A stretch of 64,000 bases of DNA. Source: Escherichia coli. Lineage in GTDB: Bacteria; Pseudomonadota; Gammaproteobacteria; Enterobacterales; Enterobacteriaceae. The translations under genes were made by a program, and so were the position numbers. The stretch lies in the NCBI RefSeq assembly GCF_051903065.1, contig NZ_CP178438.1. One strand, given 5' to 3'. This document shows, in pieces, positions 62,756-63,999 of the stretch (position 1 is its first letter; the number at the start of each line of letters is the position of its first letter). The notes under the pieces are model-generated. The model was not told the DNA's origin, made no database searches, and saw only the letters and a program-made list of their open reading frames with translations.

Positions 62756-62968
62756 ATGCATACAGTTTCTGAAAATCAGTGCGGTAAATACGCATTAATG
62801 CTGCAACAGGCCAGAACCGAAGCACAGGCCGATGCAGCAACGCGCTTTTCGTCTCATCTTGATGCCATGATTCGCCACATCACAAAGGCGGAGTTATCCC
62901 GCGTGGAGATAGTCGAGTTGCTCAGTCAGGAGTCTGCCAAATTCCATAATCTAGGACTCAATAAATAA
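62756..62968 (+). CDS. Hypothetical phage early protein (70 aa)
   Basis: ORF in the early operon between gpB-like gene and zinc-finger gene. Confidence 0.4.
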
Positions 62969-62976
62969 CAGGGAAG

Positions 62977-63228
62977 TTGGAGATGACAAATACAAAATGG
63001 TTCAGGAAACGCTTAACAGATTATCAACTTTCATTACTTAAAAAATTAGATGACAAGACTCCACTACATCCTTCAAGCGATGTCTTCCGCTCCTGTCCTA
63101 GTCGTGTGGAAAAAGCATTTATAGCAATGGGGAAATGGGGGCTTGTGACCAAATCAAGAGAAGGTTTCTGTATTACCGATAATGGCCGGGAAATGATTGA
63201 TTCTGCGGAGAGGGCATATAGCGAATGA
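62977..63228 (+). CDS. Hypothetical phage early protein (83 aa)
   Basis: ORF in the early operon; tightly packed. Confidence 0.4.
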   Translation: MEMTNTKWFRKRLTDYQLSLLKKLDDKTPLHPSSDVFRSCPSRVEKAFIAMGKWGLVTKSREGFCITDNGREMIDSAERAYSE

Positions 63229-63515
63229 AAAATATATTGCTTAATAACTGGCTGAAGATTTCAGTCATGAAAAATGGTGATTTGTCGCTAGCTGATATTA
63301 AACGCGATAAAAACACTGGGGATATGGTGGAATCAACTATAGCCATTTATGCGGATAAATTAAATCTCCTGTCTGATGTGGTCAATTTACTTGTTAAACG
63401 CGCTGTATTTCATAAGCAAATTTCATCCGTGGATGAACTGACAAAATTAACGACAGAAATCGCCAGCTATTGCGCTGATGAATTTAAGAAGCTGAACGAC
63501 AAAAGGAGCGGGTAA
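63225..63515 (+). CDS. Hypothetical phage early protein (96 aa)
   Basis: Start overlaps the upstream stop (translational coupling). Confidence 0.4.
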   Translation: MKNILLNNWLKISVMKNGDLSLADIKRDKNTGDMVESTIAIYADKLNLLSDVVNLLVKRAVFHKQISSVDELTKLTTEIASYCADEFKKLNDKRSG

Positions 63516-63739
63516 TGCCGGACAACGTAGATTTTATTCAGGAACAACAGGCTGAATTACTGGAGCGCCAGATTAACGCGGCAAGGGTAAAACATTGTGG
63601 TGCTTCTGCGCTGGTTTGCGAAGAGTGTGATGCGCCAATACCTGCTGCCCGTCGTGCGGCTTATCCGTCAGCCACGCGTTGTGTTTCCTGTCAGTCAGTC
63701 TTTGAAGCAAAAAACAAACATTACCGGAGAACGGCATGA
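63515..63739 (+). CDS. TraR/DksA-type C4 zinc-finger protein (74 aa)
   Basis: CEECDAPIP...RCVSCQ four-Cys motif; start overlaps the upstream stop. Confidence 0.6.
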   Translation: MPDNVDFIQEQQAELLERQINAARVKHCGASALVCEECDAPIPAARRAAYPSATRCVSCQSVFEAKNKHYRRTA

Positions 63740-63999
63740 GTATTCGTATTGAAATTGGCGAACGTTATGTCGTTACCAGTGACAGCTTTCAGTTTATTCT
63801 CCACGAGAAAAAGAGAGCGGAAAGCGGTAAAAACGCCGGTCAGGAGTGGCTGGCGGTGGTTGGTTATTACCCGAAATTAAGCCAGCTCGTTTCCGGCCTG
63901 ATGCATCACGATATTCTGACCGGAAGCGCAAAGTCTTTTGCTGATTTAAACGCGCAGGTTGAGCAACTCAGCAGGCGTTGTTCTGAGGCTTTTGGCTCA
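63736..63999 (+). CDS. Hypothetical phage protein, N-terminal part (runs off window end)
   Basis: ATG overlapping the previous stop (ATGA); open frame to the window edge (MSIRIEIGERYVVTSDSFQF...). Confidence 0.4.
   Translation, partial: MSIRIEIGERYVVTSDSFQFILHEKKRAESGKNAGQEWLAVVGYYPKLSQLVSGLMHHDILTGSAKSFADLNAQVEQLSRRCSEAFGS

What the first reader, a model, noticed from the sequence alone, without database searches (positions are those of the whole stretch)
62756..63999. Tightly coupled small ORFs of unknown function in the prophage early operon
Four to five ORFs of 70-96 aa with overlapping start/stop codons (ATGA junctions at 63225, 63515 and 63736) lie between the gpB-sized gene and the window end. 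None carries a motif I can assign except the C4 zinc finger. Early-operon small proteins in temperate phages are commonly host-takeover, anti-defence or superinfection-exclusion factors.
Basis: inference. Interest (0 to 1): 0.4.

Follow-up and report, generated by a model that had tools for sequence, protein, structure and literature searches.

The report
P2 prophage orf80–83 accessory gene block
These five small, tightly packed genes are the well-known orf80–orf83 block of phage P2's early operon plus one rare extra gene; the block is in about 30% of complete E. coli genomes, and its zinc-finger member is identical to a protein already shown to bind RNA polymerase and shut down ribosomal RNA promoters.

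Summary
Window 62756-64000 holds five same-strand ORFs between P2 gene B and gene A, which would start about one base past the window end.

- **Four ORFs match P2 Orf80-83 one to one.** Orf80 (DUF2732) is about 91% identical and Orf81 (DUF5405) 77%, with an identical C-terminal half. Orf82 (TraR/DksA) is 100% identical and Orf83 (DUF5405, cut by the window end) about 98%.
- **Orf82 is already characterised.** It binds the RNA polymerase secondary channel, inhibits rrnB P1 (IC50 250 nM), competes with DksA and complements a dksA deletion (PMC9239242).
- **The fifth ORF ("oX", 62983-63228, 81 aa) is absent from P2.** It lies in a roughly 430-bp mosaic replacement. It occurs in 53 of 5426 complete E. 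coli genomes and 2 of 50,697 phage records. An exhaustive search of 1.84 billion proteins found only three real relatives. Its model is a winged helix at moderate confidence.
- **Junctions.** Those at 63225 and 63736 are ATGA. The one at 63515 is TAATG, not ATGA.

Orf80, Orf81, Orf83 and oX remain functionally unknown, and the phage 186 record marks their counterparts "not essential". No defence family matched. The host-takeover idea holds for Orf82 only. Low interest; already known.

The parts
62025..62195 (+). orf78 homologue (56 aa). Context only. Its stop overlaps the start of gene B (ATGA at 62192).
   Evidence: RefSeq CDS at the same place in APEC O78, P2 annotation, sequence.
62192..62692 (+). 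Gene B (166 aa), the P2 replication protein.
   Evidence: 5 differences in 166 aa from P2 gpB. phrog_235 at E=8e-104. A relative in L085 carries PF26815 Phage_RepB.
62714..62741 (+). Weak hairpin plus T-run between B and orf80. Corresponds to P2's annotated 'putative rho-independent terminator'.
   Evidence: P2 feature at 26980-27007. Pattern scan hit CGCACTTAATCGTGCG + GGGCTTCTTT. Nearly identical in P2 and vB_YpM_117. The 5-bp stem is no more stable than shuffled sequence (z = -0.95), so it is probably leaky.
62756..62968 (+). orf80 homologue (70 aa), DUF2732 family, function unknown. GGAG lies 7 nt upstream of the ATG.
   Evidence: PF10809 at 36.7 bits against a cut-off of 25. phrog_128 at E=2e-32. 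About 91% identical to P2 Orf80, with a different C-terminal end. pN/pS = 0 against the most distant allele.
62935..63365 (.). Mosaic segment that differs from P2. It covers the 3' end of orf80, the whole extra ORF and the first ~45 codons of orf81. P2 has about 190 bp here.
   Evidence: Three-way DNA alignment of window, P2 and vB_YpM_117. G+C is 36-41% here against 47-52% in the flanks.
62983..63228 (+). Extra ORF 'oX' (81 aa; 83 aa from the TTG at 62977). A narrow-family small protein with a predicted winged-helix fold. Absent from P2.
   Evidence: phrog_11056 at E=1e-59. Only 5 clusters in 5.8 billion proteins and 3 real relatives among 1.84 billion representatives. A 46%-identical relative sits in the same slot in L085. 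AF2 pLDDT 75.9. Foldseek returns winged helices only, best T4 MotA N-terminal domain at E=7e-3. Found in 53/5426 E. coli genomes and 2 phage records.
63225..63515 (+). orf81 homologue (96 aa), DUF5405 family, function unknown. ATGA overlap with oX.
63515..63739 (+). orf82 (74 aa), a TraR/DksA-family C4 zinc-finger protein that binds the RNA polymerase secondary channel. TAATG overlap with orf81.
   Evidence: 100% identical to P2 Orf82. TIGR02419 at 78.3 bits against a cut-off of 59.7. PF01258. F TraR chains 5w1s/6n57 at E~1e-9. Biochemistry of P2 Orf82 is in PMC9239242.
63736..64000 (+). orf83 homologue, first 88 of 91 codons, a DUF5405 paralogue of orf81. ATGA overlap with orf82. In P2 and APEC O78 its last 11 nt overlap the start of gene A, which would begin at about 64001.
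   Evidence: PF17399 at 49.1 bits. 2 differences in 88 aa from P2 Orf83. P2 and APEC O78 annotation.

Best explanation
**Identity (shown).** The region is the accessory gene block between replication genes B and A in the early lytic operon of a P2-like (Peduovirus) prophage. It comprises P2 orf80, orf81, orf82 and orf83, plus one extra small gene (oX) brought in by a roughly 430-bp mosaic replacement between orf80 and orf81.

**Expression (inferred).** The five cistrons are expressed only in lytic growth, from the early promoter. Transcription reads through a weak hairpin after B. Each cistron has its own Shine-Dalgarno sequence, and most are joined by 1- or 4-nt start/stop overlaps, so ribosomes pass from one to the next.

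**Coupling into A (inferred).** The last cistron, orf83, overlaps gene A. By analogy with phage 186, where translation to the end of the preceding ORF appears necessary for translation of A, part of the reason for the tight packing is delivery of ribosomes to A.

**Orf82 (shown in the literature for the identical protein).** It is a TraR-like factor that inserts into the RNA polymerase secondary channel. It inhibits rRNA and ribosomal-protein promoters without ppGpp and so diverts host resources to the phage.

**The other four (inferred).** Orf80, Orf81, Orf83 and oX are dispensable early proteins with no known biochemistry. oX is most likely a small winged-helix protein that binds DNA or a transcription component.
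For: **Identity**
- Megablast gives 95-97% identity to P2, pro147 and other Peduovirus genomes.
- P2 annotation gives the order B, terminator, orf80, orf81, orf82, orf83, A.
- RefSeq annotates the same arrangement in APEC O78 and continues into the replication endonuclease.

**Real genes**
- Pfam, PHROG and NCBIfam hits.
- pN/pS of 0-0.2.
- The orf82-83 DNA is in 1602/5426 E. coli genomes.

**Coupling**
- Junction sequences and GGAG motifs.
- The same overlaps occur in P2.
- The 186 record notes 'translation to end of orf84 appears necessary for translation of A protein' and describes terminators that are anti-terminated in early lytic growth.

**Orf82 function**
- PMC9239242 reports complementation of a dksA deletion, an rrnB P1 IC50 of 250 nM, and competition with DksA for RNA polymerase.
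- Growth arrest on overexpression is cited there to Liu et al. 1993.

**oX**
- A 46%-identical homologue sits in the same slot in an independent P2-like contig.
- The model is a winged helix.
Against: - Nothing contradicts the identification.
- Read-through of the terminator and translational coupling into A were not tested here. They rest on annotation of P2 and 186.
- A 186-type internal terminator early in A was not found in the APEC O78 copy.
- The functions of four of the five proteins are unknown. The o81 model found no related fold.
- oX's winged-helix call rests on a shallow alignment (8 sequences, pLDDT 75.9) and on matches weaker than E=1e-3.
- One oX allele is frameshifted (L024), and truncated variants occur among the database proteins. 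Selection on oX may therefore be weak.
Confidence: 0.85

Rival explanations
1. The small proteins are anti-defence or superinfection-exclusion factors. They would neutralise host immune systems early in infection or block competing phages.
For: - They sit at the start of the lytic programme, where anti-defence genes of many phages lie (general knowledge).
- A 2026 preprint counts 8% of the defence systems of P2-like prophages in the integrase-to-gpA interval.
- oX is a rare, low-G+C insertion with patchy distribution, as accessory cargo often is.
Against: - None of the five matched any PADLOC family.
- Four of the five are conserved core genes at >=95% DNA identity in about 30% of E. coli genomes. 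They are not variable cargo.
- The main P2 defence hotspot described by Rousset et al. lies between gpA and the portal gene, not here.
- Exclusion from the prophage state would need expression in the lysogen, but this operon is repressed by C (established P2 biology, not tested here).
- Orf82 already has a different demonstrated activity.
- Anti-defence activity of Orf80, Orf81, Orf83 or oX is untested, so it is not excluded.
Confidence: 0.08
2. The DUF5405 proteins (Orf81, Orf83), and perhaps Orf80, are replication-initiation accessory factors that work with A and B at the P2 origin. This is what the PHROG label 'replication initiation protein' implies.
For: - phrog_265 and phrog_154 carry that label, and RefSeq phage records repeat it.
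- The genes lie between B and A.
- A DUF5405 gene directly abuts or overlaps A in P2, APEC O78 and L085, and a DUF5405 gene is present in the 186 block.
Against: - The 186 record marks its DUF2732 and DUF5405 genes 'unknown function; not essential'.
- The P2 GenBank record gives no function, and a comparative paper lists Orf80-83 as 'unknown'.
- L085 has no orf81 at all.
- The model matched no replication protein.
- No paper in the searchable library reports such a function. The label looks like annotation carried over from neighbouring genes.
Confidence: 0.07

Closest known systems
Bacteriophage P2 orf80-orf81-orf82-orf83 (AF063097, between genes B and A)
   Same: Same position, order and strand. 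The same hairpin follows B, with the same 1-nt and 4-nt overlaps. Orf82 is 100% identical, Orf83 about 98%, Orf80 about 91% and Orf81 77%.
   Different: An extra 81-aa ORF lies between orf80 and orf81. The last codons of orf80 and the first ~45 codons of orf81 are replaced by a diverged version. The immunity region upstream is of the pro147 type, not the P2 type.
Yersinia phages vB_YpM_117 / vB_YpM_115 and the E. coli APEC O78 prophage at pflA
   Same: Identical five-gene arrangement including oX. oX is 97.5% identical at the protein level in the Yersinia phages, and the module DNA is 100% identical in APEC O78.
   Different: None of substance. All five are annotated there only as hypothetical, DUF or TraR/DksA-family proteins.
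Phage 186 accessory block between dhr and A (DUF2732, DksA-like zinc finger, exonuclease-like, DUF5405, orf84)
   Same: It begins with a DUF2732 gene after a terminator and contains a TraR-like gene and a DUF5405 gene. The cistrons overlap and run into A. All are marked not essential, and the last cistron is translationally coupled to A.
   Different: It holds two larger genes (exonuclease-like, PAPS-reductase-like) that are absent here. It has one DUF5405 copy, not two, and no oX. It belongs to a different genus (Eganvirus).
F-plasmid TraR and phage lambda Orf73 (TraR family of RNA polymerase secondary-channel binders)
   Same: Applies to the orf82 product. It is about 73-74 aa with a CxxC-N17-CxxC zinc finger and N-terminal acidic D3 and D6. 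It matches TraR structure chains at E~1e-9, and its activity on RNA polymerase has been demonstrated.
   Different: The DxxDxA motif is DxxDxI (A8 missing). The IC50 on rrnB P1 is about five times higher than for TraR or lambda Orf73. Its effect on P2 burst size has not been reported.
T4 MotA N-terminal (activation) domain and MarR-type winged helices
   Same: Applies to oX, as a resemblance only. The predicted helix-helix-hairpin-helix fold matches 1bja_A best (E=7e-3, TM 0.53), followed by MarR/DtxR-type winged helices. A weak profile hit to MotA-like phrog_1345 has E=0.0034. MotA proteins also appear in the BFVD list.
   Different: No match reaches significance. PDB sequence and profile searches do not find MotA. 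oX has no counterpart of MotA's C-terminal DNA-binding domain. Pfam winged-helix hits are below threshold.

Membership tests
P2 orf80-83 early-operon block | Located between gene B and gene A on the same strand, after a hairpin downstream of B | tested here: met
   A itself lies just beyond the window end but is present in the identical APEC O78 prophage.
P2 orf80-83 early-operon block | One-to-one orthologues of Orf80, Orf81, Orf82 and Orf83 in that order | tested here: met
   Identities of about 91%, 77%, 100% and 98%. One additional non-P2 ORF is inserted.
TraR family (TIGR02419 / PF01258) | Profile score above the curated cut-off | tested here: met
   TIGR02419 at 78.3 bits against 59.7. 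PF01258 at 43.6 bits against 24.9.
TraR family (TIGR02419 / PF01258) | C4 zinc finger (CxxC...CxxC) in a protein of about 73 aa | tested here: met
   C35, C38, C56 and C59 in a 74-aa protein, read from the sequence.
TraR family (TIGR02419 / PF01258) | N-terminal DxxDxA motif that reaches the RNA polymerase active site | tested here: inconclusive
   The sequence is M-P-D3-N-V-D6-F-I8. Both aspartates are present and A8 is replaced by I. The authors of PMC9239242 note the same departure in P2 Orf82.
TraR family (TIGR02419 / PF01258) | Binds RNA polymerase and inhibits rRNA promoters without ppGpp | not testable with these tools
   Shown experimentally for P2 Orf82 (PMC9239242), whose sequence is identical to this ORF.
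DUF5405 (PF17399) | Profile score above the gathering threshold | tested here: met
   o81 at 94.7 bits and o83 at 49.1 bits against 21.6. The two are 17% identical paralogues.
DUF2732 (PF10809) | Profile score above the gathering threshold | tested here: met
   o80 at 36.7 bits against 25.
Winged helix-turn-helix DNA-binding proteins (for oX) | Significant profile match to a wHTH family | tested here: not met
   HTH_45 at 14.4 bits against 25.5. wHTH-PRTase_assc at 15.5 bits against 27.
Winged helix-turn-helix DNA-binding proteins (for oX) | Winged-helix fold | tested here: inconclusive
   AF2 pLDDT 75.9 from 8 sequences. All top Foldseek hits are winged helices, but with E >= 7e-3 and TM 0.45-0.6.
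Known anti-phage defence systems (PADLOC) | Any profile match for the five small proteins | tested here: not met
   No family at E <= 0.01 for any of the five.

The most novel reading that the evidence does not exclude
oX is an 81-aa ORFan with only three real relatives among 1.84 billion representative proteins. It might not be a DNA-binding winged helix but a MotA-N-terminal-domain-like protein that docks on sigma-70 or RNA polymerase. Sitting two genes upstream of the TraR-like Orf82, it would then add a second, independent grip on host transcription in a minority lineage of P2-like phages.
Probability: 0.05. Interest if true: 0.5.

Novelty: already known. Interest (0 to 1): 0.12.

Why it matters
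It matters little as a discovery. The block has been in the P2 sequence since the 1990s and is annotated in RefSeq. It is carried by about 30% of complete E. coli genomes.

- **Corrected annotation.** The zinc-finger ORF should not be called 'unknown'. It is identical to P2 Orf82, a demonstrated RNA-polymerase-binding host-transcription reprogrammer.
- **Common but unstudied proteins.** Orf80 (DUF2732), the two DUF5405 paralogues and the rare oX are among the commonest uncharacterised prophage proteins in E. coli. The phage 186 record marks their counterparts non-essential. They are cheap targets for deletion and overexpression tests.
- **Unsupported label.** The 'replication initiation protein' label that PHROG-derived annotation gives the DUF5405 genes has no support I could find.

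Tried and rejected
- **PDB by sequence.** Searches with o80, oX, o81 and the oX profile found nothing below E = 0.1.
- **NCBIfam.** No family matched o80, oX, o81, o83 or B.
- **PADLOC.** There was no hit for the five ORFs. B gave a single meaningless E=0.006 hit.
- **Rfam.** At E <= 1 on 60000-64000, both strands, there was nothing.
- **Literature.** Searches on DUF5405/DUF2732 and on P2 Orf80/81/83 turned up no functional study. The Christie and Calendar P2 review is not held.
- **MotA lead for oX.** It is recurrent but always sub-threshold. I kept it only as the novel reading.
- **186-type terminator in A.** I looked for one inside the start of A in the APEC O78 copy. None was convincing.
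- **Antisense ORFs.** Those at 63173-63346 and 63573-63737 have no support. They lie inside conserved sense genes and I rejected them as chance.
- **dN/dS for oX.** The alleles differ at too few sites (7 synonymous, 8 non-synonymous when pooled) for more than a weak statement.

Full report
**What is in the sequence.** Between 62756 and the window end there are five ORFs on the + strand:

| Name | Coordinates | Length |
|---|---|---|
| o80 | 62756-62968 | 70 aa |
| oX | 62983-63228 | 81 aa (83 from a TTG at 62977) |
| o81 | 63225-63515 | 96 aa |
| o82 | 63515-63739 | 74 aa |
| o83 | 63736 onward | 88 codons before the window ends |

Each has a GGAG-type Shine-Dalgarno sequence upstream. The one at 63515 is TAATG, a 1-nt overlap. 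o80 and oX are separated by 14 nt and do not overlap. The pattern starts further upstream: a 56-aa orf78 homologue (62025-62195) overlaps the start of gene B at 62192 by ATGA.

**What it is.**
- Megablast of 61200-64000 hits 75 phage records, all P2-like (Peduovirus) phages of Escherichia, Yersinia and Salmonella, at 92-97% identity.
- The P2 GenBank record gives the order as cox, orf78, B, a putative rho-independent terminator, orf80, orf81, orf82, orf83, A.
- The window reproduces this order.
  - B has 5 differences in 166 aa.
  - o80 is about 91% identical to Orf80, with a different C-terminal end.
  - o81 is 77% identical to Orf81, with an identical C-terminal half.
  - o82 is 100% identical to Orf82.
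  - o83 has 2 differences in 88 aa from Orf83.
- Gene A would begin at about 64001, just past the window. In E. coli APEC O78 the module DNA is 100% identical, and there the block runs straight into the replication endonuclease with an 11-nt overlap.
- The prophage starts at the integrase (60153-61148, minus strand), next to pflA.

**These are real genes.**
- o80 reaches the Pfam threshold for DUF2732, o81 and o83 for DUF5405, and o82 for zf-dskA_traR.
- All five match PHROG families at E <= 2e-32.
- Against the most distant full-length alleles in 80 IMG/VR loci, pN/pS is 0 to 0.2.
- The orf82-83 DNA is present in 1602 of 5426 complete E. coli genomes, nearly all at 95-99% identity.
- No Rfam family matched on either strand. 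The antisense ORFs have no support.

**The one characterised member.** P2 Orf82 was studied by Gopalkrishnan et al. (mBio 2022, PMC9239242).
- It complements a dksA deletion for growth on minimal medium.
- The purified protein inhibits rrnB P1 with an IC50 of 250 nM without ppGpp.
- It competes with DksA for the RNA polymerase secondary channel about as well as TraR.
- Earlier work (Liu et al. 1993, cited there) reported that overexpression stops cell growth.

Because o82 is identical in sequence, these results apply directly. Here it also scores above the TraR-family cut-off (TIGR02419, 78.3 bits against 59.7). It matches the TraR chains of RNA polymerase complexes at E~1e-9. Its zinc ligands are C35, C38, C56 and C59. 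Its N-terminus reads D3-x-x-D6-x-I8, so the conserved alanine is missing, which the authors also note.

**The extra gene, oX.** P2 has nothing between orf80 and orf81.
- *The mosaic segment.* In the window, a segment of about 430 bp (roughly 62935-63365) replaces about 190 bp of P2. It carries the end of o80, all of oX and a diverged first third of o81. Its G+C is 36-41%, against 47-52% in the flanks.
- *Distribution.*
  - The same module is in Yersinia phages vB_YpM_117 and vB_YpM_115, the only 2 of 50,697 phage records with it.
  - It is in 53 of 5426 complete E. coli genomes.
  - It is in 21 of the 80 IMG/VR loci fetched, always together with the 96-aa o81 variant.
- *Family size.* The family is tiny. 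There are five clusters in 5.8 billion proteins, all from Escherichia. Only three real relatives appear among 1.84 billion representatives scored exhaustively.
- *Evidence that it codes.* One relative (P0127, 74 aa, 46% identical over the whole length) is informative. It lies in a metagenomic P2-like contig in the same slot, directly after the DUF2732 gene. That contig lacks orf81 and orf82 altogether: B, DUF2732, oX-like, DUF5405, A. This argues that oX is a real gene with a conserved position.
- *Block architecture.* The same contig suggests that the block has a fixed first gene (DUF2732), a fixed DUF5405 gene abutting A, and a variable middle. Phage 186 is similar, with DUF2732, a TraR-like gene, two larger genes and DUF5405 before A.
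- *Predicted fold.* The AF2 model (pLDDT 75.9, shallow alignment) has two helices, a beta-hairpin and a C-terminal helix.
  - Foldseek returns only winged-helix proteins. The T4 MotA N-terminal domain comes first (E=7e-3, TM 0.53), followed by MarR-type regulators.
  - The viral library gives the same picture, but weaker.
  - A weak PHROG hit also points to MotA-like activators (E=0.0034).
  - None of this is significant, and Pfam winged-helix hits are below threshold.
  - I therefore call oX a probable small winged-helix protein and nothing more.
- *Weak constraint.* One allele is frameshifted (L024), and truncated variants occur among the database proteins.

**The remaining three.** o81 and o83 are 17%-identical paralogues.
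- PHROG-derived annotation calls these 'replication initiation protein'. I found no basis for that label.
  - The P2 record gives no function.
  - A comparative paper lists Orf80-83 as unknown.
  - The 186 record marks its DUF2732 and DUF5405 genes 'unknown function; not essential'.
  - Literature searches found no functional study.
- PADLOC and NCBIfam gave nothing for these proteins.

**How it most likely works.**
- *Shown:* the identity of the block and the activity of Orf82.
- *Inferred from annotation and established P2/186 biology:*
  - The operon is transcribed from the early promoter only when the C repressor is absent.
  - The hairpin after B (62714-62741) is conserved with P2 but weak. 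It has a 5-bp stem and is no more stable than shuffled sequence. Transcription therefore probably reads through it.
  - The overlapping stops and starts couple translation along the string.
  - The last cistron overlaps A. In 186, translation to the end of the preceding ORF appears necessary for translation of A.
  - The tight packing is therefore more likely a device for expressing A than a sign of a multi-subunit machine.
- *Not found:* a 186-type terminator inside the start of A in the APEC O78 copy.

**Rivals.**
- *Anti-defence or exclusion* cannot be excluded for the four uncharacterised proteins. It has no positive evidence, and the main described defence hotspot of P2-like phages lies elsewhere. 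A recent preprint does place 8% of P2 defence systems somewhere between the integrase and gpA.
- *A replication-accessory role* is contradicted by the 'not essential' notes and by the absence of orf81 from L085.

**Verdict.** The finding is a known, very common prophage module. The only unusual element is the rare ORFan oX, which is already annotated as a hypothetical protein in RefSeq and grouped in PHROGs.

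Noticed in passing
window 60040-60153 (minus strand); compare L088: The prophage/chromosome junction sits exactly on the pflA start codon. In a prophage-free E. coli, pflA begins CGCAATGTCAGTTATT. Here the ATG reads AAG and everything upstream is phage DNA. An in-frame ATG at 60121 gives a 265-aa PflA with a 19-aa N-terminal extension, which is how RefSeq annotates it in APEC O78. That ATG is only 31 nt from the integrase stop codon. 404 of 5426 complete E. coli genomes share this int-pflA junction. Whether PflA expression or activity changes in these lysogens is unknown.
   Followed up: partly
window 61242-62014: The immunity region is not of the P2 type. The C-like repressor (61242-61601, minus strand) and a long Cox (61628-62014; 118 aa as annotated in relatives, against 91 aa in P2) match phage pro147 and the Yersinia phages. 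P2 itself aligns only from about 62025 onward. The prophage is therefore heteroimmune to P2 but shares its replication module.
   Followed up: partly
L085 2742-3486 (metagenomic P2-like contig): This is a minimal version of the B-to-A block with only three genes: DUF2732, an oX-like gene and DUF5405. It has no orf81 and no TraR-like orf82. The TraR-like factor is therefore dispensable for at least one P2-like lineage, and the middle of the block is a variable slot.
   Followed up: partly
L024 about 2758-3004; proteins P0003, P0004, P0005, P0126: Some copies of oX carry a 1-nt indel that changes the C-terminal or N-terminal half of the protein. This is either decay of a weakly selected gene or sequencing error.
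   Followed up: no
window 63225-63515 and 63736-64000: PHROG-derived RefSeq annotation names the DUF5405 genes 'replication initiation protein' (one P2-like record even has 'minor tail protein' in this region). I found no experimental basis for it. It looks like a label spread from the neighbouring genes.
   Followed up: partly
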